DNA of 64,000 nucleotides from Betaproteobacteria bacterium (lineage in GTDB: Bacteria > Pseudomonadota > Gammaproteobacteria > Burkholderiales > SG8-39). The position numbers were made by a program, and so were the translations under genes. The stretch spans positions 6,806 through 70,805 of the forward strand of contig JACQTO010000176.1 of the NCBI GenBank assembly GCA_016210745.1, in the 5' to 3' direction. The notes under the pieces were generated by a model. That model did no database searches. It was given only the letters and a program-made list of their open reading frames with translations, and was not told where the DNA came from. Shown here piece after piece: positions 329-60,753 of this stretch (positions are counted from its first letter, which is position 1; the number at the start of each line of letters is the position of its first letter).

Positions 329-436
329 CATAACCCGAACCAAAGAGGCTGCCTCTGCCTTTTATCGATCTCCCCTTTCATGCAGTTGCATGCAACTGCA
401 TGAAAGGGGAGACCTAACAAAAGCAAATCTTCGCCT
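329..436 (-). repeat. Repeat family A copy A1 (reverse orientation, left end truncated)
   Basis: Perfect palindrome TCTCCCCTTTCATGCAGTTGC-AT-GCAACTGCATGAAAGGGGAGA at 369-412, plus flanks matching the other A copies. Confidence 0.9.
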
Positions 437-480
437 CTAGCGCCGATATCGGCGTACCACGCAACGAACGTGAAACCCCC

Positions 481-2544
481 TCACAAAACCCTCAACTGGT
501 AAGTCCCCGTCGCATCCACCACGCATCGGTACCGCTCCGGCACCACCACCGTCGTGGTCGTTTCCTGGATCAGGGCAGGGCCGAGGATCGCGTCGCGGTT
601 GCGCAAACGCTCGCCGTCGTAGACCGGCGTATCTTTCGGCTTCCCCTCGAAGAAACACGTCCTGCGGGATTTCAGGGCGTGCGCGGGATCGGCATTGCCT
701 TCGGCGCGAAGGCTCATGGTGATCGGTTTCTTGGCGCGCACTCGGGCGCGCAAACGGAAGGTGAAGAACTCCACCTCTCGTCCGGGCATCGCGAACGCGT
801 ACAGCTGCTCGTGGCGCTTGTCGAAGGCGCTCAACGCGGCCTGAATCTCGGCGTTGCCGAGCGTGCCGCCGGGCATGTCGCTCTCCAGTTCGTGGAATTG
901 ACCGTGATAGCGCATGTCGGCGCTTCGAGTCATGATGATGTCGTCCTTCGATTCGGCGACGTGCATGAGCTTGGCCGTCGCCTCGGACTGCATCTCCTCG
1001 AAGACCTGGTTCAGCCTGGCGAGATCCATCTGGTGCGCGCTGCAAGGATAGGAGCGGTTGAACTCCATGCCGACTTCGGCGGTGAACATGCCGAAAGCGC
1101 TATAGAAAGAGGTGAAGCGCGGAACGATCGAAACCGGTATGTCGAGCCTGTCGGCAATCCAGGCCGCGTGAAGTCCGCCGCCACCGCCCGCCGACATCAG
1201 AACGTAGTCCCGCGGGTCGAATCCGCGCTTGGTGCAAGTCTTGGTGATATGTCCGGCGATAACCGTATTTGCCAGGCTGAAGATCGCGGTGGCCATTTGC
1301 ACCGGGTCGTTGATGCCAAGCTGGCGTCCGAGCTTGGCGATCGCCTGCTCGGCCAAATCCATGCGCAAGGGCATTTCGCCGCCCAGGTAAAACTCCGGAG
1401 CGATGTAGCCAAGCAGCAGCGATGCATCCAGCACGGTGGGTTCGATTCCGCCCCGGTCATAGCACACCGGCCCCGGGACCGAAGCCGATGACCTGGGGCC
1501 GATTCGCAGCACCCCAAGGGGATCGATCCAGGCGATGCTGCCGCCTCCGCCTTCGAAGCTGTTCGAGTCGACCTTCTTTACCGCGATGCGCTCGTCTCCG
1601 ACCCAGGCTTCGGAAGTGGTCGGAATATCGCCGTTGGCGATCAGCGCGATATCGCTGGTGGTGCCGCCGATATCGAGGGAAATGATGTCCTTGTGTCCGG
1701 TCCGGGAACCCCAGTACACCCCCGCCGCGGGGCCGGCCGCCGGCCCCGAGCCGATCATGTAGATGGAGCGCTTGCGTGCCTCGTCGACGGACTGCACTAG
1801 GCCGTTGCTCAATACGATCAGCAACGAGCCGCCGAATCCGGCGTGCTTGAGCCTGCTCTCGAGCGTATTCAAATACCTGTCTACCACCGGTCCGATATAG
1901 GCCGCTGCGACCGTGGTGCTGAATCGCTCGTATTCTCTCCAGACAGGCAGGATTTCGTGCGACGCGGTAACGAAGACGCCCGGATACAGTTTGCGGCAGA
2001 GATCGACCGCGCGGCGCTCGTTCTCGGGGTTGGCATAGGAGTGCAGGAAGCACACGGCGATCGACTGCACGCCTTGCTTTTGCAGCGATTTTGCCGCCTT
2101 CGTGACGTCCTCCTCCGACAGGGGCGTCATGATCTGGCCGGTGTGCAGCGTCCTTTCGGCGACACCGAGCCTGCGGTAACGCGGCACCAGCGGCTGATAC
2201 GGCGGAATGAACAGGTTGTACATCGAGCTCAGCCGCATGCCCCTGCGAATTTCGCAGATGTCGCGGAAACCTTTGGTGGTGATCATGCCTGTAGAGGCGC
2301 CGTCGCCGGTCAGGATCGCGTTGCTCGCGACGGTGGTCCCGTGCAGTATCAACTCGAGCTGGCCCATGAATTCGGAAGTGGACAGCGCGTAGAAGCTCGC
2401 CGCTTTTTCCAGCGAAGCGATCAAGCCGGACGCATAATCCGGCGGCGTCGATGGAACCTTGAACTGGCGGACTTCCCCCTCTTCGTCCATGATCAGGCAG
2501 TCGGTGAAGGTCCCACCGACGTCGATTGCTGCTTGCTTCATCAA
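481..2544 (-). CDS. Hydantoinase A/oxoprolinase family ATP-dependent subunit
   Basis: IDVGGTFTD, HGTTVASNA, SGPAAG and DIGGTTSD motifs; 687 aa. Confidence 0.93.
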   Translation of the reverse strand: MMKQAAIDVGGTFTDCLIMDEEGEVRQFKVPSTPPDYASGLIASLEKAASFYALSTSEFMGQLELILHGTTVASNAILTGDGASTGMITTKGFRDICEIRRGMRLSSMYNLFIPPYQPLVPRYRRLGVAERTLHTGQIMTPLSEEDVTKAAKSLQKQGVQSIAVCFLHSYANPENERRAVDLCRKLYPGVFVTASHEILPVWREYERFSTTVAAAYIGPVVDRYLNTLESRLKHAGFGGSLLIVLSNGLVQSVDEARKRSIYMIGSGPAAGPAAGVYWGSRTGHKDIISLDIGGTTSDIALIANGDIPTTSEAWVGDERIAVKKVDSNSFEGGGGSIAWIDPLGVLRIGPRSSASVPGPVCYDRGGIEPTVLDASLLLGYIAPEFYLGGEMPLRMDLAEQAIAKLGRQLGINDPVQMATAIFSLANTVIAGHITKTCTKRGFDPRDYVLMSAGGGGGLHAAWIADRLDIPVSIVPRFTSFYSAFGMFTAEVGMEFNRSYPCSAHQMDLARLNQVFEEMQSEATAKLMHVAESKDDIIMTRSADMRYHGQFHELESDMPGGTLGNAEIQAALSAFDKRHEQLYAFAMPGREVEFFTFRLRARVRAKKPITMSLRAEGNADPAHALKSRRTCFFEGKPKDTPVYDGERLRNRDAILGPALIQETTTTVVVPERYRCVVDATGTYQLRVL

Positions 2545-2778
2545 AAACTCCCCCTTTCACACCCATCGGGAAAAGCTTTCCCCTTCCGGTCTTTCATGGC
2601 AAGCTGTTCCCTCCAATAATCGTATTGTTCTTGTCGCCCGGTGCGCCCGGGCGCGGCCAGTATAGCGTGCGCAACGGCATCCTGGGGCCCACGGCTCTGT
2701 GGAGTGATCAACTGTAGAATAAGGAAACGGCAACATACCTGCGGGGATTTCATCCATCGTTTTACGGAGGAGGAAGCG

Positions 2779-12230: not shown

Positions 12231-12455
12231 TCTGCGCCTTCTTGGCCGCGAGCTGCGACGGAATTTCAGGCGCGCCGAGATTGGCCCGGTGGCTGCTGGT
12301 CCGCGATGCCAGGATGGCGGTACCAATACGCTCCGGGCAAACCGGAGTGACAACGGGCTGGGGTGAAGGTAAGACACGCGCGGCCTTCGATGGACTCGAT
12401 CGGAGCAGCTCGATTGCGAAACGAAATGCTGTCTCGCAATCGCGAATTCAAGCGT

Positions 12456-13337: not shown

Positions 13338-13382
13338 GTCTGTATTAACCCACCCCCATCCCTGCCTTCTCTCTTTCCCGCC

Positions 13383-14360: not shown

Positions 14361-14369
14361 CGTTTGCTC

Positions 14370-14524
14370 TTGGTCACTTGCAAGTTTACTGTTGACAAAT
14401 TGGGCGAAGATTTGGCTTCTAAATTCGTCTCCCCTTTTTCGCGCAGTTGCTTGCAACTGCGCGAAAAGGGGGAGATTGATAAACGGCTAAATCAGCTTCC
14501 TTGGTTCCGGGTCGTCCGGCTGAG
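14370..14524 (+). repeat. Repeat family A copy A2 (full length)
   Basis: TTGG-TCACTTGCAAGTTTACTGTTGACAAAT...; 23-bp stem at 14428-14475; ends GGTTCCGGGTCGTCCGGC-TGAG. Confidence 0.92.
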
Positions 14525-14525
14525 G

Positions 14526-14607
14526 TCTCCACGTTTTGTGCATTGCTCGCAACTGCACAAAACGCGGAGATTTATCAAAGGCAAAAAATCAGCGCCACGC
14601 GTTCAGG
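14526..14607 (+). repeat. Repeat family A copy A3 (hairpin plus right flank, degenerate, tandem to A2)
   Basis: TCTCCACGTTTTGTGCATTGC-TC-GCAACTGCACAAAACGCGGAGA then TTTATCAAAGGCAAAA. Confidence 0.8.
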
Positions 14608-14631
14608 ATCATCGGTTTCGGGGCGGCATTT

Positions 14632-16200: not shown

Positions 16201-16208
16201 CGTGCGGC

Positions 16209-16362
16209 TTAGTCACTTACGAAATTTACTGTTCACAAATTCGGCGAAGAGTTGGTTTCTAAATTCGTCTCCCCCTTTCATACGGTTGCTTGCAACCGTA
16301 TGAAAGGGGGAGATTGATAAAAGGCAAAACCAGCTTCCCTGGTTCCGGCTCGTGCGGCTCAG
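16209..16362 (+). repeat. Repeat family A copy A4 (full length)
   Basis: TTAG-TCACTTAC...; perfect 22-bp stem at 16268-16313; ends CGTGCGGC-TCAG. Confidence 0.92.
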
Positions 16363-16417
16363 GATGAAAAACATTGACGGCACGCGCATTCGTTGCCCCC
16401 TGCCGATGGAAGCGCGA

Positions 16418-19259: not shown

Positions 19260-19315
19260 ATTCGTCGTTATTGTCCGGAAAGAAGAGCGGTTAAATTGCA
19301 GCGCGCCATTCTAAT

Positions 19316-20080: not shown

Positions 20081-20097
20081 CTCAACCACTCGGATAT
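20073..20097 (+). promoter_or_regulatory. Putative IscR type-1 binding site upstream of cysE
   Basis: ATAGTTGACTCAACCACTCGGATAT resembles the type-1 consensus and the two boxes before iscR. Confidence 0.65.
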
Positions 20098-20131
20098 ATA
20101 ATAATGGCTTGACAGATATAGAAGAAACATC

Positions 20132-22736: not shown

Positions 22737-22740
22737 GGGC

Positions 22741-26800: not shown

Positions 26801-26944
26801 TTGGTCACTTACAAGTCTACTGTTGACAAATTTGGCGAAGATTTGGTTTCTAAATTCGTCTCCCCTTTTCGTGCAGTTGCACGCATCTGCACAAAAAGGG
26901 GAGATTGATAAACGGCAAGACCAGCTTCCTTGATTCGGGCTTAG
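26801..26944 (+). repeat. Repeat family A copy A5, inside a GGATTYA heptamer array
   Basis: TTGG-TCACTTAC...stem 26859-26904 (2 mismatches)...CGGGC-TTAG. Confidence 0.92.
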
Positions 26945-27065
26945 GATTTAGGATCTAGGAATGCGGGGCCGTGCTTCGCGCGGCTAATTTCGCTAAATCC
27001 TGAATCCTGATTTCCCGCAGGACTTGGAGGGCGACCGGGTTGCCGGTACTATCCGGTCCATGAGC

Positions 27066-29763: not shown

Positions 29764-29800
29764 GCAAAAAGGGGGAGATTGATAAAAGGCAAAACCGCCT
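29764..29800 (+). repeat. Right-half fragment of repeat family A
   Basis: GCAAAAAGGGGGAGATTGATAAAAGGCAAAACC abutting B3. Confidence 0.75.
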
Positions 29801-29801
29801 T

Positions 29802-31187
29802 TTACTGTGATTCCATCACCGAAGCTTCCATCACCGAAGGCAGTCCGGCAAGAGCCATCGCCAATTCGCTCTCGTCGTAGGCGAGATCCTTCAGGTTTCC
29901 CGCGAAGTAATCGATGTACGCCTGCATGTCGAAGTGGCCGTGGCCGCACAGGTTGAACAGGATCGTTTTCGCTTTGCCTTCCTCGCGGCAACGTATCGCT
30001 TCGTCGATGGCGCCGCGCACTGCGTGATTGGCTTCAGGCGCGGGCACGATCCCCTCGGTTCGCGCGAATTGAACGCCGGCCTCGAAGCATTTCATTTGCG
30101 TGTAGGCCACTGCTTCCATCAGGCCTAGCTCCTTGATATGCGAGACCATCGGCGCCATGCCGTGGTAACGAAGCCCGCCGGCGTGGAATCCGGGCGGGGT
30201 AAAGGTCGAGCCGAGGGTGTGCATCTTCACCAGAGGCGTGAGATGCGCGGTATCGCCGAAATCGAATGCATACTTGCCGCGGGTGAGGCTGGGGCAGGCC
30301 GAGGGCTCGACAGCGACGATGCGGACCTTCTTGCCGCCACGAAGCTGGGCGCCCAAAAACGGAAACACGATACCGGCAAAATTCGATCCGCCGCCGGTGC
30401 AGCCTACGATGATGTCGGGATAGTCGCCCGCCATGTCCATCTGCGCCATCGCTTCCTGACCGATGATGGTCTGGTGCGTCAGCACGTGGTTCAGCACCGA
30501 ACCCAGCGAGTACTTGGTGTCCTCGTTCTGTGCAGCCACCTCCACGGCTTCGGAGATGGCGATGCCGAGGCTCCCGGGATGGTCCGCCCGCTGGGCTAGA
30601 ATCGCCCGGCCCGACTGAGTCTCATTCGAAGGCGAGGGGATACAGGTCGCGCCGTAGGTTTCCATGAGCGCTCGGCGATAAGGCTTCTGGTTGTACGAAA
30701 TGCGCACCATGAATACCTTCACTTCGAGGCCGAAAATCTGTCCCGCGAAGGAAAGCGCCGATCCCCACTGGCCGGCGCCGGTCTCGGTGGTCAATTTCTT
30801 GACTCCCGCGTCCTTGTTGTAGAAGGCCTGCGCGACCGCGGTATTCGGCTTGTGGCTGCCTGCCGGACTCACACCCTCGTACTTGTAGTAGATCTTGGCC
30901 GGAGTCTGCAGCGCTTTTTCCAGGCGCCGGGCGCGGTAAAGCGGCGACGGACGCCACTGCCGGTAGACGTCGCGAACCGGTTGTGGAATCTCGATCTGGC
31001 GCTCCGTGGATACCTCCTGCATGATCAGCTCGGTAGGAAACAGGGGCGCGAGGTCGGCCGGTCCAATCGGCTGGTGCGTGCCCGGATGCAGTACTGGAGG
31101 CGGCGGCTTGGGCAGGTCGGCGGCGATGTTGTACCAGAATTTCGGGATGCGGCTCTCGTCGAGCACGTATTTGATTTGATCGGACAT
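29802..31187 (-). CDS. TrpB-like PLP-dependent enzyme (TrpB2)
   Basis: [40 protein letters not shown]; stand-alone, no trpA nearby. Confidence 0.93.
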
Positions 31188-34900: not shown

Positions 34901-35754
34901 ACGGCAGGCGCATCAATGTGGCGCTGACGTTTTCCCCGATCAAGGGCCCCATTGGGGAGATCGTTGGGTACTCGGTGATCGCCCGGGATATCACCGAGCG
35001 CAAGCGTTTGGAAAAGGAAATTCTGACACTCAACGAATCGCTGGAGCGACGGGTGGCCGAGCGCACCAGGGAATTGGAGAGCGCCAACCGGGAACTGGAT
35101 TCGTTTTCGTATTCGGTGTCTCACGATTTGAGGGCGCCTCTGCGCGCACTGGTCGGCTTCACCGGAATAATCCAGCAGGATTATGCAAAGCTGCTCGACG
35201 CCGGCGGCCGGCAAATGCTCGATCGCATCGTTCATAATTCCCTGCGCATGGGGGAGATGATCGACGACCTGTTGCGGCTCTCGCGCCTTGGGCGCGCGGG
35301 GCTCAATATGCGCCCGGTCGATCTGAACGCCCTGGTTGCCGAGGCGGTTCGGACCGCGCTCGCCGAACATCCGAAGACGCACGTGGAGGTGGCGCAACTG
35401 CCCGCGGTAACCGGAGACCCGGGGCTGTTGCGTCAGGTATTCCAAAATCTGCTCGACAATGCCTTCAAGTTCAGCGCCAAGGTGGCTTCGCCGAACGTGT
35501 CGATCGGAGTCGAGCCTGGCCCGGAAGGGGCCGTCTTTTTTGTGCGCGACAATGGCGCCGGATTCGACATGAACTATGCGGACAAGCTTTTCGGAGTCTT
35601 CCAGCGCATGCATCAAGCGTCCGAATTTCCCGGCACCGGCGTGGGTCTGGTCATCGTCAAGCGCATCGTCGAGCGCCATGGCGGCCGGGTATGGGCCGAG
35701 AGCGCGCCGGGGCAAGGCGCGACGTTCCGATTCACATTGGGTGCGCGGGCCTGA
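31930..35754 (+). CDS. Membrane sensor histidine kinase (Cache-like, 4 PAS, GAF, HisKA, HATPase)
   Basis: Two TM segments, four RDITxRKR PAC ends, GAF, SVSHDLRAP, DNGAGF, GTGVGL; start may be ATG 31957. Confidence 0.93.
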   Translation: MGCPIRETPMTRAALNTVIKNGNGTGGPAPVGSAQRLMLFAFALAVAVILGAAHISFNYFSGRVLREAQENLLAIAKLKSDQIAVMIDGKTRDARLFSVRPAVPSILGGRRTRVAREESERIVVKVIADTAEAHGYKNIFITDSLLRIVASPPDAKPHPFERAALEAALGKGQPALADIHIGPDGLPDYGVAYPVFQNGEGNGRVIGAVFLEIDGRKNLFPLLSSWPTPSPSAETSLIRREGNEVVILSPLKQDPSAPPLSIRFPIGEEQRLGTRAILKGETLIEARDSRGIEVIAAAYPVPGTPWVMLSKVDRDEVAGPVHILAATITALVALFLVLSGGIARLLWRRHSQALTLKRVRLAERYAAAARASLDGYMVVDEGSRQILEVNAALAGITGYGSSEMLGMNIRNLVADESPEQIAERGRRLKETGGDRFQGRWKRKDGAIVDVEISMNYLRDSKEGHVVAFVRDITERKRAENALARESYRNEAFLRNSSDGVHIVDADGNVLEVSDSFCRMLGYSRDELVGANVSKWDAQWSPDELRCRIKEQIENEGTSEFETRHRRRDGSIVDVDITGNALELDGRKVLFNSARDITERKRAENALTRESRRNQAFLRNSSDGVHILDADGNVLEVSDSFCRMHGYSREEVIGANVSKWVHHVSPEDLRYRLREYLEIGGSSKFEGRHRRRDGSFLDVEITRNALELDGKKVLFSSARDITDRKRRENEIAALNRLYKTLSGVNGAIVRSTNRRELCQRVCEIAAKHGGWEAAWIGFVDEDTQWIVPEAWSNSMAPFIEGMHVSVDPERPEGRGPTGISTRSGTPYFCNDVFSDPVTAPWRMFLKDFGVASAAAVPVRSGQSFSGVINLYSTQKEFFSPDVQALLVEICGDLSYAIETFELKARHERLQTRLAEIVESSNDAISAADMAGIVTNWNAGAEALYGYRAEEIVGKQVRILIPEDMRQDFEAFLGSVEKGKGISNLETVRLTKDGRRINVALTFSPIKGPIGEIVGYSVIARDITERKRLEKEILTLNESLERRVAERTRELESANRELDSFSYSVSHDLRAPLRALVGFTGIIQQDYAKLLDAGGRQMLDRIVHNSLRMGEMIDDLLRLSRLGRAGLNMRPVDLNALVAEAVRTALAEHPKTHVEVAQLPAVTGDPGLLRQVFQNLLDNAFKFSAKVASPNVSIGVEPGPEGAVFFVRDNGAGFDMNYADKLFGVFQRMHQASEFPGTGVGLVIVKRIVERHGGRVWAESAPGQGATFRFTLGARA

Positions 35755-35764
35755 GGGCCGAGCC

Positions 35765-35898
35765 ACCGTTGACAAATTTGGCGAAGATTTGATTTCTAAA
35801 TTTGTCTCCCTCTTTCGTGCGGTTGCGTGCAACCGCACGAAAGAGGGAGATTGATAAACGGCAAAACCAGCTTCGTTGATTCGGCTGGTCCGGCTCAG
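35765..35898 (+). repeat. Repeat family A copy A6 (left end clipped)
   Basis: Perfect 22-bp stem at 35805-35850; ends GGTCCGGC-TCAG. Confidence 0.9.
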
Positions 35899-42125: not shown

Positions 42126-42189
42126 CATTTCATCAAACCGACGCCGCACGGTTGAAGGCGTTTGGGAAATGTTACTCTGACCCCATTTT
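42093..42189 (-). repeat. Repeat family B copy B4 (42108-42189) with a duplicated 13-bp arm start (42093-42105)
   Basis: AAAATGGGGTCAG-GG-AAAATGGGGTCAGAGTAACATTTC...GAAATGTTACTCTGACCCCATTTT. Confidence 0.92.
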
Positions 42190-42215
42190 CCTATTGGCGC
42201 CTATCGGGGACCAGC

Positions 42216-49111: not shown

Positions 49112-51639
49112 GCGCTCCCGCCTGCCGTCACCGCGTCCAGCACCGCAAGCAGCTCGTGGAAACGCAGCTCATCCGTCATGCGGCGCAGCCGGGCGCCGAG
49201 TTCCACGTCGATGCGCTCGACCTTTGCGGCAAGCTCAAGGCAGCGCCGCATGTCCAGCAGCACCGCGGCGTAACGCAACTCCTCGATCAATTCCGGCGGG
49301 AGTTCGCGCAATTGGGTCACACTGCATTGCCCCTCCCCGGCAGTCGAGGGCTGTTCTTCGTCGTACAGGAAGCGCACGCCAAGGTGTTTTTCCAGCGCTT
49401 CGAATATCTCGGTATCCCGGTAAGGTTTGCTTATGAAATCGTCGCAGCCGGCCGCCAGAATCTCATCCCGCTCAACCGCCATGGCACGCGCGGTAAGGGC
49501 GACGATCTTGGTTTGAGCCCCGGCCGCCTTGATGCGCCTGGTGGCCTCCAGCCCGTCAATATCCGGCATGCAGATATCCATCCAGATGAGATGCGGACGC
49601 CATTGCTGGGCGAGAGCGACCGCTTCGCCGCCATCGACGGCGTCGCGCAGATCGAATTGCAGAGGCTCGAGCAGCGAGTGCAAGAGCACACGGTTCTCCG
49701 GCTGGTCTTCGGCGATGAGCAGTCGATAGCTCTGTTGTCCCGGCGCCAGGCCTATGATGCGTGCGCCGGTCCATTTTGCGGCGAGTTCTGCTGAGGGGCT
49801 GGCGGTGTGCAGCGGAACCTCGAACCGGAATACCGTGCCCTTGCCCGGTATCGAGCTCAAGCCGAGTTCCCCGCCCATGAGTTCGACCAGTTGCTTGCTG
49901 ATGTGCAGCCCCAGACCGGTTCCGGTTTCTGAGCGGGCCGGGCCGGTCAATTGTTGGAACGGGGCGAAGATGCGGCTCCTGTCCTTCTCGTCGATGCCGG
50001 GACCGGTATCTTCCACCTCAAAGCGAACTCGCTGTGCCGCCTCCTGTGGCGTGGTCTCGGCGCGCAACGATACCCCGCCGGTCCTGGTGAATTTGATCGC
50101 ATTACCGAGCAGATTGATCAATACCTGGCGCAATTTGACCGCATCTGCGGTTGCATAGCGGGACACCCCCGGGGAAATGACCATGCGGAAGCTCAATCCT
50201 TTTCCCGCGGCCTGCACTTGCATCAACGATGCGATTTCATGCAATAACCGGTGCAGGTCGAAATCGATTTCCTCGAGCGCCATGCGGCCCGACTCGATCT
50301 TGGACAAGTCCAGGATATTGTTGATGAGATGCAAAAGGTGTTCGCCACTGCTGTTGATAATATCCAAATGGCGTGCCTGTTCCGCGGTGACATCCTTGCT
50401 GTTCATCAGCAAGCGGCAGAAGCCGAGGATCCCGTTCAGCGGCGTGCGCAGTTCATGGCTTACGGTGGAGAGAAAAGCCGCCTTTGCCGCGTTCGCCTGC
50501 TCGGCCACCTGTTTCGCGAGCAGCATTTCGTGCTCCGCCTTTTCGGCTACGTCTCGCTCCCGTTCCCGCTGATGCAGAAGCTGCTGCGTGTCCAGCAGGG
50601 CTTGTCGCACTCGATCGGCCTCTTTGAGCCCAAGCGGAGGAATCGACACCGCTTCGCCCTTGCCGATCGCCAAGGCTGGGGCTGTCAATTCCTGGATCGG
50701 CCGGGCGATGCCGCGGCCGATCCAGGTGGCCAATCCGAGGCCCATCAAAAGCAGCAGGCCTGCGCCAGCGGAGTAAAGCGCGAGGTCTCGCCTCAGATCG
50801 GCGGTCAGAACGGCCTCCGGGACCCCGATCGCTACCGCCCACCCGTAGAGCGAGGATCGGCTGAAGGCAGTCATTACCCGGATGCCTTCCAGCGTCGGAC
50901 TCACGTCCAGCACTTCCTCCTGCACCTGCAGCATTCGTTGCAGAAGGGCCGGCGAAGCCTTCCGGCCGACAAACTGCTCCGCGGCGCGGTCCCGAGCGAC
51001 GATCGTTCCCGTGCGGTCGAAGATTCCAATAACCCATTCCCGGGGCAGACCCTGCTGCGACAGGACTTCGCCAAGATGATTGGGATCCATGCCCAAAGCC
51101 AGACCATAGAGCGCCTTGCCGTCGCGAATCACCGGCACCTCGATGCCCACCAGCGGTTTCTTGGTGACGCCTCCGATATAGACGTCGGACACAGCTGGCT
51201 TGGCCGTCGCAAGTACCTGCTGCAGCAGCTCAGGATTGCCGTGGCGCGGAAGTGAGGCGCCGAATGGCCGGAGAAGGTTCACGACCTGCTGCCCGGAGGC
51301 GTCGGTCAGGACGATGGTGAATCCCGAGGTGTACCCCAACACCTCCTTCGCCTGGCGGTAGAAGGCGGCGAAATCGCGGCGATCGATCTGGCTCGATGTG
51401 GCAAGGGTTTGCAGCGCGGCCACGTTGGCGGCCAGATCACGTTCGACGACCCGCATGAGGCCGCGGGTGGTTTCGAGCGTGCGTTGCGTAAGGTTGGACC
51501 GTTCCTGTTTATAGGAAACGTAGGTGACAGCGGCGGCGAGCAGCCAGGCCGGCAGAATGCAGGCGACTACCAGTAAAGCAACGCGCGCCTGGATCGTCAG
51601 CCGGTCGTGCTGACGCAGTGCCGCAAAGAGCTTCCGCAA
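49108..51639 (-). CDS. Hybrid histidine kinase (Cache sensor, HisKA, HATPase, REC)
   Basis: TM-Cache-TM, SHELRTPLN, GTGLGL, WMDICMP; TTG start. Confidence 0.92.
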   Translation of the reverse strand: MRKLFAALRQHDRLTIQARVALLVVACILPAWLLAAAVTYVSYKQERSNLTQRTLETTRGLMRVVERDLAANVAALQTLATSSQIDRRDFAAFYRQAKEVLGYTSGFTIVLTDASGQQVVNLLRPFGASLPRHGNPELLQQVLATAKPAVSDVYIGGVTKKPLVGIEVPVIRDGKALYGLALGMDPNHLGEVLSQQGLPREWVIGIFDRTGTIVARDRAAEQFVGRKASPALLQRMLQVQEEVLDVSPTLEGIRVMTAFSRSSLYGWAVAIGVPEAVLTADLRRDLALYSAGAGLLLLMGLGLATWIGRGIARPIQELTAPALAIGKGEAVSIPPLGLKEADRVRQALLDTQQLLHQRERERDVAEKAEHEMLLAKQVAEQANAAKAAFLSTVSHELRTPLNGILGFCRLLMNSKDVTAEQARHLDIINSSGEHLLHLINNILDLSKIESGRMALEEIDFDLHRLLHEIASLMQVQAAGKGLSFRMVISPGVSRYATADAVKLRQVLINLLGNAIKFTRTGGVSLRAETTPQEAAQRVRFEVEDTGPGIDEKDRSRIFAPFQQLTGPARSETGTGLGLHISKQLVELMGGELGLSSIPGKGTVFRFEVPLHTASPSAELAAKWTGARIIGLAPGQQSYRLLIAEDQPENRVLLHSLLEPLQFDLRDAVDGGEAVALAQQWRPHLIWMDICMPDIDGLEATRRIKAAGAQTKIVALTARAMAVERDEILAAGCDDFISKPYRDTEIFEALEKHLGVRFLYDEEQPSTAGEGQCSVTQLRELPPELIEELRYAAVLLDMRRCLELAAKVERIDVELGARLRRMTDELRFHELLAVLDAVTAGGSA

Positions 51640-52400: not shown

Positions 52401-53609
52401 TTGCGCCGCCCGTCCGACATTTCCTTCATAGCCGCGCTGGGGTCGATCACCTTGATCGGTCCGCTTGCGGTGCATCTGTACTTGCCGGTAATGCCGGAGG
52501 TCAAAAAGGCCTTTGCCATTTCGGAAGCGCTGGTGGGGCTGACTTTCAGCGCCACGCTTCTGGTCATGGCGATCGTTACTCTGGTTTACGGCTCGCTATC
52601 GGATCGCTACGGCCGGCGGCCGGTGCTGCTCACGGGGCTGATCTTGTTCACCGTCGGCGGCGCCGTTTCAGCCCTCGCGGATTCAGTGGCCGGCTTGATC
52701 GCCGGAAGGATTATTCAGGCCCTGGGCGCCGGCTGCGGCATGACGCTTGCCCGTGTGATAGCGCGCGATGCCTATGGGGCCGATCGCCTTGTGAAAGCGA
52801 TCGCCTATCTGAGCATGGCCTACGCGCTCGGACCCATGCTCTCGCCGCTGTTCGCCGGGATCCTGATCGATACTTGGGGCTGGCGAAGCGCGCTATGGTT
52901 CACCGCATTGTCCGGCGCGGCCATAACGGCGTTGGCATTCGTCGTGCTCTACGAGACGCGTCCTGCCGATGAAGTCGTATCGACGCCCTCGGGGGTCTGG
53001 CGGAACTATGCGGTGCTCATCGCGCACCCGCGTTTCACCGCTTTCGTATTGCAGACAGGATTGTCCACCGCGACTTTTTACGCTATGGCAGCGGCTTCGG
53101 CGTTCCTGATGAAAGACTATCTAGGCCGGTCGGCGACGGAGTTCGGACTGTATTTCGTGTTCTTTCCCGTGGGATTGTTCGCCGGGAATTTGCTTTCGAG
53201 CGTATTGAGCCACCGATTCTCGATTGAAACGATGGTCCTTACGGGATCTGTCATCAACATGGCTGCGGTGATCTCGCAGTCGGCGTTGATTCTCGCGGGG
53301 TATCTAAACCCGCTGATAATTTTCATTCCCGGATTCCTGGTTACCTTCGGTCAGGGACTGGCGCTGCCCAATGCCCAGGCCGGCGCACTTCGGGTGATGC
53401 CCGCACTGGCCGGCACGGCAGCGGGCACCGGCGTGTTTTTCCAGTCGTTCCTGGGCGCGGTTTTTTCTCAGATCTACGGCCTGCTCGCCGATGGCACGCC
53501 CATACCCTTGGTTATCACGGCGTCAGCCGGAGCGGTTCTGACCTTGATTGCAGGATTGACGCCCGTCGTCTTGAAACTCCGGGAGCGCCCCGCGCCAATG
53601 CCTGGCTAG
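52401..53609 (+). CDS. Bcr/CflA family MFS efflux transporter (paralog 1)
   Basis: YGSLSDRYGRRPVLL; hydrophobic 12-TM-like pattern; 402 aa. Confidence 0.92.
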   Translation: MRRPSDISFIAALGSITLIGPLAVHLYLPVMPEVKKAFAISEALVGLTFSATLLVMAIVTLVYGSLSDRYGRRPVLLTGLILFTVGGAVSALADSVAGLIAGRIIQALGAGCGMTLARVIARDAYGADRLVKAIAYLSMAYALGPMLSPLFAGILIDTWGWRSALWFTALSGAAITALAFVVLYETRPADEVVSTPSGVWRNYAVLIAHPRFTAFVLQTGLSTATFYAMAAASAFLMKDYLGRSATEFGLYFVFFPVGLFAGNLLSSVLSHRFSIETMVLTGSVINMAAVISQSALILAGYLNPLIIFIPGFLVTFGQGLALPNAQAGALRVMPALAGTAAGTGVFFQSFLGAVFSQIYGLLADGTPIPLVITASAGAVLTLIAGLTPVVLKLRERPAPMPG

Positions 53610-53722
53610 AGCCGGAGCAGTCCGTCCGTGCCGTCTTGCCCAGGAGATAGTGCCCGAGGCGGGACGATGTCACGGACTTGCGCCGATGACACGCCGCGAA
53701 GCCACCATGACCTTCCCAACCA

Positions 53723-54931
53723 ATGCGCCGCACGCCTAACTTGACTTTCTTGACCGCTCTCGCGTCGATCACCTTGATCGGGCCGTTTGCGGTGCACCTT
53801 TTTCTGCCCGTCATGCCGGAGATCAAGAAAGCATTTGCCATTTCCGAAGCTCTGGTGGGGCTGACTTTCAGCGTCAGCCTCATGGTCATGGCTTTCGCTA
53901 CGCTGGTGTACGGGTCGCTTTCGGATCGCTACGGCCGGCGGCCAGTGCTGCTCGCAGGGCTGGCCTTGTTCACTGTCGGCGGAACCGTGGCTGCCTTTGC
54001 GGGCTCGGTTTCCGGTCTAGTTATCGGGCGGATGATTCAAGCCCTCGGTGCCGGCTGCGGCATCACGCTCGCCCGCGTCATAGCCCGCGATGCCTACGGG
54101 AGCGATAGTCTTGTCAAAGTGATCGCCTATCTGAGTATGGCCGCCACGCTCGGGCCCATGATCTCCCCGCTGATCGGTGGGGTCCTGATCGATACCTTCG
54201 GCTGGCGGAGCGTTCTGTTGTTTGCCGTGCTGGCCGGCGCAATCATTGCGTTGTCGGCTTACGTCGTGCTCTACGAGACCCATCCGGCGAATGAAATCGA
54301 ACCGGGACGCTCAGGGGTCTTGCGTGACTACGCCGTGCTCCTCGCGCATCCGCGCTTCACCGCTTTCGTATTGCAGACGGGATTTGCCACCGGGACTTTT
54401 TTCGCCATGGCAGCCGCATCGTCTTTCCTGATGAAGGACTATCTTGCCCGGTCCGCCACGGAGTTCGGCCTGTATTTCGTTTTGTTTCCATTGGGATTGC
54501 TCGTCGGAAATGTCATTTCGAGCAGGCTAAGCCAGCGTTTCCCGATCGAGAATATGGTTCTTGCGGGGTCCATCATCAACCTGGTGACGATAATTTCTCA
54601 GTCGGCATTGATTTTCGGAGGGTATCTGACCCCGCTGATCATATTCATTCCCGGATTCCTGATTACCTTCGGTCAGGGACTGGCGCTGCCCAATGCTCAG
54701 GCCGGCGCGCTTCGGGTGATGCCAAAGCTGGCCGGCACCGCCGCGGGCATCGGCGTGTTTTTCCAGTCGTTCCTCGGTGCTGTTTTTTCCCAAGTTTACG
54801 GGCTGCTTGCCGATGGCACGCCCATACCCATGGTCATCGCCGTTTCAGTCGGGTCGGTCCTTACTTTTTTTGCAGGACTGACGCCCTTTGTTTTGAAGCG
54901 ACGCGAGCGCGCTGCGGCAGCGCAGCGATGA
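53723..54931 (+). CDS. Bcr/CflA family MFS efflux transporter (paralog 2)
   Basis: Same motifs; 402 aa. Confidence 0.92.
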   Translation: MRRTPNLTFLTALASITLIGPFAVHLFLPVMPEIKKAFAISEALVGLTFSVSLMVMAFATLVYGSLSDRYGRRPVLLAGLALFTVGGTVAAFAGSVSGLVIGRMIQALGAGCGITLARVIARDAYGSDSLVKVIAYLSMAATLGPMISPLIGGVLIDTFGWRSVLLFAVLAGAIIALSAYVVLYETHPANEIEPGRSGVLRDYAVLLAHPRFTAFVLQTGFATGTFFAMAAASSFLMKDYLARSATEFGLYFVLFPLGLLVGNVISSRLSQRFPIENMVLAGSIINLVTIISQSALIFGGYLTPLIIFIPGFLITFGQGLALPNAQAGALRVMPKLAGTAAGIGVFFQSFLGAVFSQVYGLLADGTPIPMVIAVSVGSVLTFFAGLTPFVLKRRERAAAAQR

Positions 54932-54967
54932 GTTTGCAAATGTCCATCCCGTAGGACCAGAGAATCG

Positions 54968-56176
54968 ATGCGCCGCCAGCCTGCCTTCCTCTTTGCAGCC
55001 GCTCTGGTGTCGATCACCCTGATCGACCCGTTTGCGGTGCTCCTTTTTCTGCCCGCTATGCCGGAAGTGAAAAAGGCATTCGCCATTTCGGAGGCGGTGG
55101 TCGGGTTGACTTTGAGCGTCACCCTCTTGGTCATGGCTATCGTTACCCTTTTGTACGGCTCGCTTTCCGATCGCTACGGCCGCCGGCCGGTACTGCTCGC
55201 GGGCCTGGTCTTGTTTACCGCGGGCGGAGCTATTTCGGCCCTCGCGGTCTCGGTCTCCGATCTGATTGCGGGGAGGGTAATTCAGGCCCTGGGCGCAGGC
55301 TGCGGCGTCGCGCTTGCCCGCGTCATCGCCCGGGATGCCTATGGGAGCGATAGTCTTGTCAAAGTGATCGCCTATCTGAGCATGGCCGCCACGCTCGGGC
55401 CCATGATCTCCCCGCTGCTGGGCGGGGCGCTGATCGATACGTTCGGCTGGCGAAGCGTGTTGTGGTTCGCCACGCTGGCCGGCGCACTCATCACGTCGTT
55501 GGCATACGCCGCGCTCTACGAAACCCGCCCGGCGGATGAAATCGAACGGGGACGCACAGGGTTTCTCCGGAATTACGCCGCGCTCTTCGCGCATCCGCGC
55601 TTCACCGCCTTCGTATTGCAGACCGGATTATCCACCGGGACTTTTTACGCGATGGCATCCGCGTCGGCGTTCCTGATGAAAGATTATATGAGCCGGTCCG
55701 CGACTGAATTCGGGCTGTATTTCGTCTTGTTTCCGGTAGGATTATTCATCGGTCATCTGCTCTCGGGCAGGCTGAGCCGGCGATTCTCGATTGAAAACAT
55801 GGTCCTTACGGGATCGCTCATCAATCTGACGGCGGTCATCGCGCAGTCGGCGCTGATACTTGCAGGGTATCTGACGCCGCTGATAATTTTTGTTCCCGGA
55901 TTCTTGCTTACTTTCGGCCAGGGCTTGGCGCTGCCGAATGCGCAGGCCGGTGCGCTCCGGGTGATCCCGGGGCTCTCCGGTACGGCGGCGGGCATCGGCG
56001 TGTTTTTCCAGTTGTTGCTTGGGGCTGTATTTTCCCAAGTCTACGGCCTGCTTGCCGATGGCACGCCGATCCCTATGCTTATCGTCGTTTCAGTCGGGTC
56101 GGTTCTGACTTTGCTTGCCGGATCAACGCCTTTCCTATTAAAACGCCGGGAGCGCGCTGCGGTATCGCCTCGATAG
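54968..56176 (+). CDS. Bcr/CflA family MFS efflux transporter (paralog 3)
   Basis: Same motifs; 402 aa. Confidence 0.92.
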   Translation: MRRQPAFLFAAALVSITLIDPFAVLLFLPAMPEVKKAFAISEAVVGLTLSVTLLVMAIVTLLYGSLSDRYGRRPVLLAGLVLFTAGGAISALAVSVSDLIAGRVIQALGAGCGVALARVIARDAYGSDSLVKVIAYLSMAATLGPMISPLLGGALIDTFGWRSVLWFATLAGALITSLAYAALYETRPADEIERGRTGFLRNYAALFAHPRFTAFVLQTGLSTGTFYAMASASAFLMKDYMSRSATEFGLYFVLFPVGLFIGHLLSGRLSRRFSIENMVLTGSLINLTAVIAQSALILAGYLTPLIIFVPGFLLTFGQGLALPNAQAGALRVIPGLSGTAAGIGVFFQLLLGAVFSQVYGLLADGTPIPMLIVVSVGSVLTLLAGSTPFLLKRRERAAVSPR

Positions 56177-59539: not shown

Positions 59540-59706
59540 CCCATTTCTCTTCGGCGAGATTGACACCATCGCCGCAAAGAGTAGCATCAATGACTTTTTG
59601 CGTGCCTCGTTTCTCCCCATAGCCGAACCGATCGCCCGCCTGCGCGGATTACCCACATGAATCGGCAGTTCGATTTTGGTTCAGCATCCAAGAGTGCGCC
59701 CTCGCC

Positions 59707-60594
59707 ATGAACCTCACCTCCGGCCAGCGATTCCGCCTGGCGCTGCAAGAAGAGCAGCCGCTGCAGATTGTCGGCGCCATCAACGCCAACCACGCGTTGC
59801 TGGCGCAGCGCGCCGGCTACCGTGCCATCTACCTCTCCGGCGGCGGTGTGGCCGCGGGATCCTTGGGGATGCCCGATCTGGGCATCAACACGCTCGATGA
59901 CGTGCTCGTGGATGTGCGCCGCATCACCGACGTTTGCGACGTGCCTTTGCTGGTGGACATCGACACCGGCTTCGGCCCCAGCGCATTCAACATCGCGCGC
60001 ACGGTCAAGAGCCTGATCCGCTCAAGCGCGGCAGCCTGCCACATCGAAGACCAGGTTGGGGCCAAGCGCTGCGGCCACCGGCCCGGCAAGGAAATCGTGC
60101 CGGTCGACGAGATGGTGGACCGCGTCAAAGCCGCTGTCGATGCCCGCGGCGATGAAAGCTTCTTCATCATCGCCCGCACCGATTCGATCGCCCGGGAAGG
60201 CGTCGATGCCGCGCTGGAACGCGCCATGCGTTATGTGGAAGCAGGCGCCGACGGTGTTTTCCCGGAAGCCGCACGCGACTTGCCGACGTTCAAGCGCTTC
60301 ACGCAGCAAGTGGGCAGGCCGGTGCTGGCCAACATGACGGAATTCGGTCAAACACCGCTATTCACCGTGGACCAATTGCGCTCGGCGTCGGTGGCCATGA
60401 TTCTTTATCCCTTGAGCGCTTTTCGCGCCATGAACAAAGCTGCGGAAGCGGTCTACGAGACCATTCGCCGCGACGGTACGCAGCAGGCTGCGGTCGCGGC
60501 GATGCAGACTCGCGAAGAGCTCTATGAACGCATTGGCTATCACGCGTATGAACAAAGGCTCGATGCGCTGTTCGCCAAACGCGACGGGAGCTGA
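59707..60594 (+). CDS. prpB: 2-methylisocitrate lyase
   Basis: [36 protein letters not shown]. Confidence 0.95.
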
Positions 60595-60596
60595 TC

Positions 60597-60753
60597 CTAA
60601 GCCGGACGAGCCGGAACCAGTGAAGCTGGTTTTGCCCTTTATCAATCTCCCCTTTTCATGCAGTTGCGTGCAACTGCATGAAAAGGGGAGACGAATTTGG
60701 AAACCAAATCTTTCTTCGCCAAATCTGTCAACAGTACACTTGTAAGAGACTAA
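60597..60753 (-). repeat. Repeat family A copy A8 (reverse orientation, full length)
   Basis: CTAA at both ends; perfect 22-bp stem at 60646-60691. Confidence 0.92.

What the first reader, a model, noticed from the sequence alone, without database searches (positions are those of the whole stretch)
329..60753. Repeat family A: 145-157 bp element, nine copies or fragments, with a covarying 21-23 bp palindrome
Seen: copies at 329, 14370, 14526, 16209, 26801, 29764 (half), 35765, 59394 and 60597. Consensus: TTRG-TCACTTACAAGTTTACTGTTGACAAATTTGGCGAAGATTTGGTTTCTAAATTCG-[TCTCC..GTTGC-NN-GCAAC..GGAGA]-TTGATAAANGGCAAAACCAGCTTCCTTGGTTCCGGC(TCGTCCGGC)-TYAG. The stem differs between copies (CATGCAG, CGCGCAG, CATACGG, CGTGCGG, CGTGCAG; CCCC, CCCTC), yet both arms change together and five copies are perfect palindromes. 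The 2-nt loop varies freely (AT, TT, TC, AC, GT, AA). There are no terminal inverted repeats and no ORF. Inference: a non-autonomous element spread as structured ssDNA or RNA (HUH-type, or site-specific recombination at a tetramer core), whose arms are selected for pairing or copied from each other. One copy per about 7 kb would imply hundreds per genome. I do not recognise it as a named family.
Basis: partly seen in the sequence, partly recalled or inferred. Interest (0 to 1): 0.8.

Follow-up and report, generated by a model that had tools for sequence, protein, structure and literature searches.

The report
Abundant palindromic repeat inserting at TTAG
A 150-base non-coding DNA element built around a long perfect hairpin has multiplied to hundreds of copies between the genes of an uncultured groundwater bacterium and its relatives; it behaves like a small mobile parasite, but the enzyme that moves it has not been found.

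Summary
All nine window loci are recovered. The whole genome (5.2 Mb) holds 463 non-overlapping loci, 1.08% of the DNA, and 253 of them are near full length. The unit is about 153 bp: TTAG, a 58-nt left wing, a 22+22-bp palindrome with a free 2-nt loop, a 45-nt right wing, then TTAGG. It has no terminal inverted repeats and no correlated target duplication. It is intergenic and differs in presence between relatives. It always has the same orientation as adjacent heptamer arrays (30 of 30) and as neighbouring copies (18 of 19). Its terminal tetramer is often the stop codon of the adjoining gene (51 of 505 ends). A covariance model finds it in 23 of 101 genomes of the same taxonomic family and in none of 147 genomes from other families of the order. 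Arm covariation is strong and strictly Watson-Crick. Orthologous copies show mirrored indels and flipped loops, which fits template-switch homogenisation. The best reading is a non-autonomous mobile element that inserts in one orientation at TYAG, possibly through single-stranded DNA. No transposase is linked to it: Y1 genes are never flanked by it. There is no Rfam, plasmid or phage match. It is a new variant of the REP/REPIN/PATE kind.

The parts
324..468 (-). Family A copy on the minus strand, with a perfect palindrome at 369-413; the left wing is diverged
   Evidence: cmsearch 103.5 bits over model positions 1-150; nhmmer 333-435, model 34-140; sequence read
14370..14520 (+). Full-length family A copy, inserted between two co-directional minus-strand genes
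   Evidence: nhmmer model 1-149; cmsearch 148.8 bits; the orthologous intergenic sites in two congeners are about 20-45 bp long and lack it
14525..14615 (+). Partial family A copy of an older subtype (palindrome TCTCCACG...CGCGGAGA plus right wing), head-to-tail behind the previous copy
   Evidence: nhmmer model 58-144; cmsearch model 57-148
16209..16362 (+). Full-length family A copy, TTAG...TCAG, with a perfect 22+22 palindrome at 16268-16313
   Evidence: folds at -62.5 kcal/mol, z = -6.9 against shuffles
26801..26949 (+). Full-length family A copy embedded in same-strand AGGATNN heptamer arrays just after a gene's TAG stop; two arm mismatches
29767..29813 (+). Remnant of family A (end of the right arm plus start of the right wing), directly behind a family B element at 29679-29765. 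A congener has a fuller family A copy at the orthologous place.
   Evidence: nhmmer model 93-136; G003:C143:10960-11110
35747..35894 (+). Family A copy lacking the first ~11 nt of the left wing, with a perfect palindrome; it lies directly upstream of an IS110-family element
   Evidence: nhmmer model 12-149; cmsearch 120.9 bits
59394..59544 (+). Full-length family A copy with a perfect palindrome
60601..60753 (-). Full-length family A copy on the minus strand with a perfect palindrome

Best explanation
Family A is a non-autonomous mobile DNA element of about 153 bp. Its layout is TTAG, a 58-nt left wing (TCACTTAC...TGTTGAC...GGCGAAGATTTGG...), a 22-bp arm, a 2-nt loop, a 22-bp arm, a 45-nt right wing (...GGTTCCGGCTCGTCCGGC), then TTAG(G). 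SHOWN: it is multicopy, intergenic and sharply bounded, and its presence differs between relatives. It is confined to one taxonomic family among the genomes searched. It lies in a fixed orientation relative to an asymmetric TYAG-bearing target, and its terminal tetramer is often the neighbouring gene's stop codon. INFERRED: an enzyme acting in trans recognises the conserved wings and ends and inserts the unit, in one orientation, at or next to a TYAG tetranucleotide without duplicating a variable target. The most likely route is a single-stranded 'peel-and-paste' intermediate of the HUH/Y1 kind, in which the central palindrome folds as a hairpin. The arms stay complementary mainly through a DNA-level process: intra-strand template switching that copies one arm from the other and can invert the loop. 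Copies with intact hairpins also found new subfamilies more readily. Effects on the host, such as a very stable hairpin in 3' UTRs and within operons, are probably side effects that help the element persist. My odds: mobile non-autonomous element 0.8; insertion specific for orientation and tetranucleotide 0.7; arm homogenisation by template switching as a major cause of the covariation 0.55; HUH/Y1 enzyme 0.35. The single confidence figure (0.5) is for the statement as a whole.
For: Copy number and anatomy: 463 loci, 253 near full length. The unit is 150-155 bp. Information content drops abruptly outside TTAG (left) and TTAGG (right) in 119 anchored copies. Context: 458 of 463 loci lie outside my gene calls. 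Of 392 classifiable loci, 77 sit between convergent genes and 38 between divergent genes, against 543 and 564 such intervals genome-wide. Mobility: the site of the 14370 copy is empty in two congeners, with TCAG or TTAG at the empty junction. Four copies in G003 have no counterpart at the syntenic site in G000. Metagenome contigs with 90-92% identical flanks carry a copy where G000 has none (L055, L057). Not a classical cut-and-paste element: the left and right tetramers are identical in 39 of 119 copies, against about 31% expected if independent; among the 64 copies whose left tetramer is not TTAG, only 4 match. Orientation specificity: 30 of 30 AGGATNN heptamer arrays within 15 bp of a copy lie on the element's strand. 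Of 19 pairs of neighbouring copies no more than 30 bp apart, 18 are head-to-tail. Tandem units share a single TTAG. Stop codons: bases 2-4 of the left tetramer are the stop of an incoming gene in 31 of 231 ends, and the complement of the right tetramer is the stop in 20 of 274 ends. No other distance bin up to 60 nt exceeds 4. Replication bias: orientation agrees with the sign of local GC skew in 113 of 172 copies where |skew| > 0.02. Age and spread: 23 of 101 genomes and 11 of 34 genera of the family carry it, against 0 of 147 genomes of 60 other families. The ends, TGTTGAC, the stem base and the TTGC/GCAA apex are conserved across genera while the stem interior differs. Arms: 96 of 137 in-register copies are perfect, against 2.4% expected for independent arms; there are 155 compensated changes against 60 non-Watson-Crick pairs. 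In the covariance-model alignment, 231 cells have changes on both sides against 60 in shuffles (0 of 500 shuffles reach it), and the covariation score is 0.351 against at most 0.10 for slid partners. Pointers to a DNA-level process: loop dinucleotides are strand-symmetric (AA 78/TT 73, AG 27/CT 24, GT 23/AC 22). Orthologous copies are each perfect but differ at 3 or more mirrored positions and have AA against TT loops. One pair shows a mirrored 1-nt indel. One pair has identical flanks with an AA-to-TT loop. Abstracts report that template switching homogenises inverted-repeat arms and inverts spacers (PMC8604942, PMC8794818; seen in the listing). Y1 genes exist in the genome. Homologues occur in 22 of 23 element-positive genomes against 37 of 78 negative ones.
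Against: No enzyme is tied to the element. The three Y1 genes of this genome have no family A copy within about 3 kb, and the one that is flanked by repeats is flanked by a different family, B. No family A copy lies within 3 kb of Y1 homologues at 12 loci in 11 other genomes. The Y1 co-occurrence is confounded by kinship, and Y1 genes are common anyway (59 of 101 genomes). No longer copy has the same ends. No TnpB was found. IS200/IS605 elements have an imperfect hairpin at each end; here the big palindrome is central, and the small right-wing hairpins have only weak support (70% of cells paired, covariation 0.20 against 0.156, reached by 8 of 500 shuffles). The GC-skew bias is modest (66%) and may simply follow gene orientation (161 of 277 copies in tandem context run the same way as the genes). 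I did not obtain a clean empty site at high identity, so 'insertion next to the target' and '4-bp duplication that later decayed' give the same sequences and are not separated. Among rare variants, only 10 are compensated against 19 that are not, so homogenisation is not fast, and selection on founder copies may explain much of the covariation. The assembly is a 270-contig metagenome bin (97% complete, 5.3% contamination), so a multicopy autonomous element could be unassembled.
Confidence: 0.5

Rival explanations
1. Family A is mainly a host cis-element: a very stable hairpin module placed behind genes to end or stabilise transcripts, or to bind a nucleoid protein. On this reading it is kept by selection at each locus, and its spread is secondary.
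For: The copies are intergenic, and twice as many lie between convergent genes as between divergent genes (77 against 38), although the genome has about equal numbers of both interval types. Ends abut stop codons in 51 of 505 cases. The hairpin is kept perfect in old, diverged copies of other species and genera. The family has persisted across 11 of 34 genera. A weak terminator-like hairpin with a T-rich tail lies in the right wing on the minus strand. REPs are reported to act in termination and mRNA stability (PMC3733652 abstract).
Against: No U-tract follows the main hairpin on either strand (consensus). The terminator scan as a whole is not above shuffles (6 found against 2.8 +/- 1.9). Orientation relative to the flanking genes is nearly random (161 of 277). 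Occupancy differs between close relatives. Conserved asymmetric wings and sharp TTAG borders are not needed for a terminator. The loop is almost free (diversity 0.62). At least one copy sits inside an operon-like gene pair whose spacer is about 20-45 bp in relatives.
Confidence: 0.2
2. Family A is moved by a site-specific recombinase that exchanges strands at a short TTAG core shared by donor and target (for example a DEDD/IS110-type or tyrosine recombinase), not by an HUH enzyme.
For: The same tetramer sits at both junctions without behaving as a duplication of a variable target, and orientation is fixed relative to the target; a core-based exchange predicts both. Two IS110-family transposase genes are present. 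The right end of the C71 IS110 element is joined to a family A left wing exactly at the foot of the palindrome, and the same junction recurs on contig C24.
Against: Outside TYAG the flanks of 119 copies carry almost no information, whereas, from my recall, IS110-type elements specify longer targets through a guide RNA. Neither IS110 gene is bounded by family A ends. The IS110-associated repeat (family C) is a separate family with other preferred flanks. Only 1 of about 40 family C ends examined lies in a family A palindrome.
Confidence: 0.12
3. The arm covariation reflects selection on an RNA (or single-stranded DNA) hairpin through ordinary compensatory substitutions, not arm-to-arm copying.
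For: Compensatory change in hairpin-forming repeats is reported for REPINs (PMC3116915, passage read). Common variants are mostly compensated while rare ones are not (10 compensated against 19 uncompensated), as expected if only hairpin-competent copies multiply. The stem base and apex are conserved across genera.
Against: One-sided (wobble) intermediates are nearly absent (0-1 per pair against up to 16 double changes among 35 diverse copies). Mismatches show no wobble preference on the plus strand (G:T 56, A:C 84). Loops flip to their exact complement between orthologues whose flanks are identical. A 1-nt indel is mirrored in both arms.
Confidence: 0.3

Closest known systems
REPINs / REP sequences with their RAYT (Y1, HUH) transposases
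   Same: High-copy, intergenic, hairpin-forming and non-autonomous. They persist vertically within a lineage, and compensatory changes across the hairpin are common (PMC3116915, passage read). This genome also has a typical system of that kind: family B flanking a Y1 gene.
   Different: A REPIN is a symmetric doublet of two short inverted REPs next to its single-copy RAYT. Family A has one 22+22-bp perfect palindrome between two unrelated, conserved wings. Neighbouring copies lie head-to-tail (18 of 19), not inverted. No Y1 gene is flanked by it.
IS200/IS605 insertion sequences and their miniature derivatives (PATEs)
   Same: No terminal inverted repeats and no target duplication. Insertion is next to a specific tetra- or pentanucleotide in one orientation. 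They rely on DNA hairpins and are coupled to replication (abstracts of PMC3201880 and PMC5027513, listing). Family A shows the tetranucleotide, the orientation rule and a modest skew bias.
   Different: Those elements carry an imperfect palindrome near each end. Family A has one central perfect palindrome and only weakly supported small hairpins in the right wing. No parent element with TnpA or TnpB between the same ends was found.
CGTC-tagged palindromic repeats (Di Nocera et al. 2013, PMC3733652)
   Same: The foot of the family A palindrome is preceded by CG, so it reads CGTCTCC. CGTC repeats also lack a dedicated transposase and lie mostly downstream of genes (passages read).
   Different: CGTC repeats have stems of 8-9 bp, loops of 4-5 nt and a CCA tail, and they occur as head-to-head dimers. 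Family A has 22-bp arms, a 2-nt loop, about 50-nt wings and head-to-tail neighbours.
Classical bacterial MITEs (Correia/NEMIS, ERIC, RUP and the like; names recalled, not searched)
   Same: Size near 150 bp, high copy number, intergenic position, predicted long RNA/DNA hairpins, and occasional overlap with gene ends.
   Different: Those have terminal inverted repeats matching a DDE transposase and a duplicated target such as TA. Family A has neither.

Membership tests
REPIN-RAYT system | The repeats flank a (usually single-copy) Y1/RAYT gene | tested here: not met
   None of the 3 Y1_Tnp genes in this genome has a family A locus within about 3 kb. No family A match lies within +/-3 kb of Y1 homologues at 12 loci in 11 other genomes, while the positive-control locus L079 was found. 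The repeat-flanked Y1 gene (L011) is flanked by family B instead.
REPIN-RAYT system | The unit is a symmetric doublet of two short inverted REPs (20-40 bp imperfect palindromes with a GTAG-type tag) | tested here: not met
   Consensus of 131 copies: a single 46-bp palindrome and two unrelated wings of 58 and 50 nt. Neighbouring copies are head-to-tail in 18 of 19 pairs.
REPIN-RAYT system | High copy number, intergenic, hairpin with compensatory changes, lineage-restricted | tested here: met
Classical MITE (DDE-derived) | Terminal inverted repeats | tested here: not met
   The left end TTAGTCACTTAC and the reverse complement of the right end (CCTAAGCCGGAC) share only the tetramer. This is by inspection of the consensus; no formal aligner was run on the ends alone.
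Classical MITE (DDE-derived) | Target-site duplication of a variable target | tested here: not met
   The left and right tetramers are identical in 39 of 119 copies, against about 31% expected by chance. Among the 64 copies with a non-TTAG left tetramer, 4 match.
IS200/IS605-derived miniature element (PATE) | Orientation-specific insertion beside a fixed tetra/pentanucleotide, without duplication | tested here: inconclusive
   The data are consistent with it: TYAG at both junctions, 30 of 30 arrays and 18 of 19 neighbours co-oriented, and TCAG/TTAG present at empty sites. No clean filled/empty pair at high identity was obtained to show the exact junction.
IS200/IS605-derived miniature element (PATE) | Subterminal imperfect hairpins at both ends | tested here: inconclusive
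   Two small right-wing helices: 70% of cells paired, covariation 0.20 against 0.156 in shuffles (reached by 8 of 500). RNAalifold predicts no conserved left-wing helix.
IS200/IS605-derived miniature element (PATE) | A full-length parent with tnpA/tnpB between the same ends | tested here: not met
   No left-end/right-end pair 165-8000 bp apart that is not explained by separate copies. No TnpB domain in the assembly. The assembly is fragmented, so absence is not proven.
CGTC-tagged REPs | Stem of 8-9 bp, loop of 4-5 nt, CCA tail, head-to-head dimers | tested here: not met
   Family A has 22-bp arms and a 2-nt loop in 274 of 362 copies. The family's features were taken from passages of PMC3733652.
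Any Rfam RNA family | Score at or above the family's gathering threshold | tested here: not met
   No match in the whole window at gathering scores. At E <= 1, the 2.1 kb holding three copies gives only eukaryotic miRNA and snoRNA models at 20-32 bits, against thresholds of 49-102.

The most novel reading that the evidence does not exclude
Family A is the cargo-less mobile unit of a transposition system that has not been described. An enzyme not encoded next to its substrate, and perhaps not a recognisable transposase, would move a hairpin element in one orientation into TYAG tetranucleotides, so that it often shares a gene's stop codon. The hairpin would be continually re-symmetrised by fold-back copying with flip-flop of the loop, much like rolling-hairpin replication. 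This would be a system of new anatomy that has lasted across a whole bacterial family.
Probability: 0.25. Interest if true: 0.75.

Novelty: new variant of a known kind. Interest (0 to 1): 0.55.

Why it matters
If the reading holds, it adds a structurally distinct type to the short list of bacterial high-copy non-autonomous elements. This type has a central perfect palindrome, asymmetric conserved wings, a TTAG at each junction, head-to-tail neighbours and ends that share gene stop codons. It comes from an uncultured groundwater lineage where such repeats also break assemblies: 57 of 540 contig ends lie in or near a copy. It poses a concrete question, namely which enzyme moves an element that is never found beside a transposase gene. 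The same question is open for CGTC repeats. It also offers hundreds of natural replicates, with orthologues in sister species, for measuring how long palindromes stay perfect in bacterial DNA. Practically, the covariance model can be used to mask or annotate these repeats in metagenome bins.

Tried and rejected
1. Expression: no RNA holder was listed for the stretch I submitted, so nothing can be said about transcription.

2. Laying metagenome contigs on window 12400-32000. Depth spikes appeared in the bins that hold family A and B copies, and there were many repeat-driven joints. One joint skips 26805-26940 with three other letters in between, but at 88% likeness and with repeated heptamer flanks it cannot be assigned to this locus. 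I do not use it as evidence of excision.

3. Promoter idea (the conserved TTGACA). The scan found no sigma-70-like site in 2.1 kb holding three copies. By eye, the best -10-like hexamer lies 22-24 nt downstream, which is too far. I dropped the idea.

4. A longer autonomous copy: none found.

5. TnpB and Y2_Tnp: no match. The Y2 control genomes were also silent, so that search says nothing.

6. The idea that the IS110 element targets the apex of the family A palindrome. It is seen once (C166), but only 1 of about 40 family C ends examined lies there. Rejected as a rule.

7. RAYT linkage in other genomes: none.

8. Blastn alone suggested the repeat was confined to the genus (3 of 3 congeners, 0 of 27 other genera). 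The covariance model showed this was too narrow.

9. The best hit in G003 (C145) is 100% identical to G000:C183 over its flanks. It is a shared or mis-binned contig, so I did not count it as independent.

10. The pair L051/C83 was dropped as an orthologous pair because its left flanks do not align.

11. My first gene caller was too strict (66% coverage) and was replaced (81% coverage). All context counts rest on this rough caller.

12. The MAFFT alignment misplaces the lower stem, so the covariance-model structure is offset there. Only the 11 apex-proximal pairs are read pair by pair. Alignment A2 also holds both strands of the same palindromes.

13. ISfinder and R-scape are not available here. 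Supplementary files of the papers are closed; the additional files of PMC3733652 list repeat families that I could not see.

14. The search of earlier findings was not open.

Full report
OBSERVATION. The repeat is real. The repeat finder returns the 46-nt palindrome family at eight window positions. The flanking similarity is visible when the nine stated places are printed side by side. An nhmmer profile built from six window copies recovers all nine window loci. It gives 783 hits in the window's own 5.2-Mb, 270-contig assembly, which collapse to 463 non-overlapping loci. Of these, 253 cover at least 130 of the 149 model positions. Together they make 56,398 bp, or 1.08% of the assembly, at 49% G+C against 62% for the genome. 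Of 540 contig ends, 57 lie in or within 160 bp of a copy, so the repeat also limits the assembly.

ANATOMY. The consensus of 131 full copies is TTAG, then a 58-nt left wing, then TCTCCCCTTTTCGTGCAGTTGC, NN, GCAACTGCACGAAAAGGGGAGA, then a 45-nt right wing ending GGTTCCGGCTCGTCCGGC, then TTAGG. Information content falls to background immediately outside the left TTAG and the right TTAGG in 119 anchored copies. The distance from left end to right end is 150-155 bp in 67 of 102 paired ends. The two ends are not inverted repeats of each other. The left and right tetramers do not behave as a duplicated target: they are identical in 39 of 119 copies against about 31% expected from their separate frequencies, and in only 4 of the 64 copies whose left tetramer is not TTAG. 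Nucleotide diversity per column is 0.23 (left wing), 0.15 and 0.14 (arms), 0.62 (loop), 0.18 (right wing) and 0.72 (genomic flanks). A single copy folds at -62.5 kcal/mol (z = -6.9), about equally well on either strand and also as DNA.

THE PALINDROME. Of 362 copies that span it, 176 have 22 of 22 Watson-Crick pairs, with 107 different arm sequences. Among 137 copies in the commonest register, 96 (70%) are perfect, whereas 2.4% would be expected if the arms diverged independently at the observed per-site rates. These copies carry 155 compensated changes against 60 non-Watson-Crick pairs. In 35 diverse copies from three species, RNAalifold finds double-sided changes in 7 of the 11 apex-proximal pairs (up to 16 sequences per pair) and 0-1 one-sided changes. 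On a covariance-model alignment of 103 matches, 93.4% of cells pair against 81.8% in shuffles. There are 231 cells with changes on both sides against 60 in shuffles (0 of 500 shuffles reach this). The covariation score is 0.351 against at most 0.10 when partners are slid. That alignment is fitted to the structure, contains both strands of the same palindromes, and is offset in the lower stem, so I read only the upper pairs one by one.

Three features point to a DNA-level symmetrising process rather than classical RNA compensation.
- Mismatches show no wobble preference: G:T 56, A:C 84.
- Loop dinucleotides come in complementary pairs at equal frequency: AA 78/TT 73, AG 27/CT 24, GT 23/AC 22.
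- Orthologous copies differ by mirrored events. G003 L037 and G000 C238 are each perfect, yet differ at two substitutions plus an indel in both arms and have AA against TT loops. A metagenome contig and G000 C183 differ by a 1-nt indel mirrored in both arms. Another contig and G000 C65 have identical flanks but AA against TT loops.

Arm homogenisation with spacer inversion is what replication template switching is reported to produce (abstracts of PMC8604942 and PMC8794818, seen in the listing). Against a purely mutational reading, rare variants are compensated in only 10 cases and uncompensated in 19. Preferential multiplication of hairpin-competent founders therefore probably also contributes.

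WHERE IT SITS. I wrote a rough codon-usage gene caller (3,976 calls, 81% coverage). By its calls, 458 of 463 loci are intergenic. Of 392 classifiable loci, 277 lie between co-directional genes, 77 between convergent genes and 38 between divergent genes. Genome-wide there are 2,599, 543 and 564 such intervals. Orientation relative to co-directional genes is weakly biased (161 of 277). Orientation follows the sign of local GC skew in 113 of 172 copies where |skew| > 0.02 and in 203 of 351 overall.

A sharper signal lies at the ends. In 31 of 231 left ends, bases 2-4 of the tetramer are the stop codon of a gene reading into the element (TTAG 20, GTAG 4, ATAG 3, CTAG 3, TTGA 1). In 20 of 274 right ends, the complement of the tetramer is the stop of a gene arriving from the other side (TTAG 10, TCAG 6, CTAG 3, TTAT 1). 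No other distance bin up to 60 nt holds more than 4.

Many copies are embedded in tandem AGGATNN heptamers, which carry TYAG on one strand only. All 30 arrays within 15 bp of a copy lie on the element's strand, while 52 of the 104 arrays are more than 200 bp from any copy. Neighbouring copies no more than 30 bp apart are head-to-tail in 18 of 19 pairs, and tandem units share one TTAG. Insertion is therefore orientation-specific with respect to an asymmetric tetranucleotide.

MOBILITY AND AGE. The copy at 14370 sits between two co-directional genes whose spacer is about 20-45 bp in two congeners and lacks the element. TCAG or TTAG stands at those empty sites. Four G003 copies have no counterpart at the syntenic G000 site. 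Two metagenome contigs with 90-92% identical flanks carry a copy where G000 has none, and a third (94% flanks) carries a different subtype at the same heptamer array. I did not obtain an unambiguous filled/empty pair at high identity.

Blastn finds the repeat only in the three congeners. The covariance model finds it in 23 of 101 genomes and 11 of 34 genera of the same taxonomic family, and in 0 of 147 genomes of 60 other families of the order. The scoring caps mean these matches are not copy numbers. Across genera the ends (TTAGTCACTTAC......TTCCGGCTCGTCCGGCTTAGG), TGTTGAC, the stem foot and the TTGC/GCAA apex are kept, while the stem interior is replaced by other, still complementary, sequence.

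Some orthologous pairs look vertically inherited (L037/C238). In others the G000 copy resembles the G000 consensus while the congener's copy resembles its own type, although the junction is the same (L029/C125 and L050/C40). That suggests either conversion or re-insertion at hot spots. A record in the genome collection titled 'MAG: Betaproteobacteria bacterium RIFCSPLOWO2_02_FULL_65_20' carries the element. Groundwater metagenome runs hold the stretch.

WHAT MOVES IT. Not found. The genome has three Y1 (IS200-like) genes. None has a family A copy within about 3 kb. The one flanked by repeats is flanked by another family, B. Y1 homologues occur in 22 of 23 element-positive and 37 of 78 element-negative genomes (Fisher p = 1.9e-5). 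However, kin are not independent, and no family A copy lies within 3 kb of such genes at 12 loci in 11 other genomes. No TnpB was found. The Y2 search was uninformative. No longer copy has the same ends. Two IS110-family transposases exist. One of these elements abuts a family A left wing at the palindrome foot, and the same junction recurs on contig C24, but neither gene is bounded by family A ends.

Composite copies in which family B replaces the apex of the family A palindrome occur at four loci outside the window, with the B interior in both orientations, and a fifth remnant stands at window 29679-29813. Either B repeatedly hits this spot, or an A::B composite spread as a unit. The second reading would mean that the wings, not the exact palindrome, are what the machinery needs. 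Copies that lack the palindrome altogether also exist (C216, C167).

COMPARISON. There is no Rfam match at gathering scores. At E <= 1 only eukaryotic miRNA-hairpin models appear, far below threshold. There is no similar DNA in the plasmid or phage collections. The literature searches I ran returned no description of such an element.
- REPINs share the high copy number, the hairpin, the compensatory changes and the lineage restriction (PMC3116915). They differ in being symmetric doublets next to a RAYT.
- CGTC-tagged REPs share the CGTC at the stem foot and the lack of a dedicated transposase. They have 8-9-bp stems and form head-to-head dimers (PMC3733652).
- IS200/IS605 elements and their miniatures share the absence of inverted repeats and duplications, the tetranucleotide rule and the strand specificity (abstracts). 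They have a hairpin at each end.

Family A works most like the last group, but it fails or leaves open their membership tests. I file it as a new variant of the REP/REPIN/PATE kind.

VERDICT. The mechanism I commit to is insertion of a non-autonomous hairpin element at TYAG, in one orientation, by an unlinked trans-acting enzyme. I judge a single-stranded HUH-type route most likely (0.35), and I expect the arms to be homogenised by template switching. Interest is moderate. The anatomy and the missing enzyme are unusual, but the general kind is known.

Noticed in passing
window 24257-24343, 27064-27150, 29679-29765, 42107-42190, 63624-63710; locus L011: Second repeat family (B): about 87 bp with 25-nt inverted ends (AAAATGGGGTCAGAGTAACATTTC...) and a variable centre found in either orientation. 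Copies flank a Y1/RAYT-like gene on contig C204 on both sides, so B looks like a classical REPIN-RAYT system. B also sits inside the family A palindrome at the same position at four other loci.
   Followed up: partly
window about 35900-37725 (transposase ORF 35876-37372, + strand): An IS110-family element (Pfam DEDD_Tnp_IS110 plus Transposase_20), single copy in the assembly. About 65 nt of its left end and about 110 nt of its right end recur joined together as a miniature repeat (family C; 98 right-end and 62 left-end blast hits). Family C contains its own palindrome and is usually followed by a further conserved 45-nt stretch. The element in the window lies between two copies of a GGGGTCGGGTTGCGAGCAACCCGACCC palindrome. 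A second IS110 gene lies at G000:C71:32340-33430.
   Followed up: partly
window 26781-26800 and 26936-27010; genome-wide: Tandem AGGATNN heptamer arrays: 104 arrays of 3-11 units. They are often paired in inverted orientation around a G+C-rich hairpin (GGCCGCGCTTCGCGCGGC). They put stop codons in all three frames on both strands. They resemble the GGGAATC/GGGGATT heptamer repeats near stop codons described in Xanthomonas and Nostoc (PMC4692102, passages read).
   Followed up: partly
G003:C145 (loci L002, L023) versus G000:C183: A contig of a sister-species bin is 100% identical to a contig of this genome across about 900 bp of flanks at each of three places. This points to a shared or mis-binned contig, so cross-genome counts involving it are not independent.
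   Followed up: partly
window 52401-56176: Three tandem ORFs of 402 aa each, 78-80% identical at the DNA level (spacing 1322 and 1245 bp). A further pair of long paralogous stretches lies at 45829-46830 and 49344-50333 (75% identical).
   Followed up: no
G000 contigs C216:4967-5071 and C167:17885-17945: Family A copies in which the whole palindrome is missing and the two wings are joined directly. This fits palindrome deletion, or a palindrome-free ancestral form.
   Followed up: no
whole genome (my gene calls): TAG is the stop codon in 1,124 of 3,976 rough gene calls (TGA 2,087; TAA 623). That seems high for a genome of 62% G+C and may reflect genes ending in TTAG-bearing repeats and heptamer arrays.
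   Followed up: no
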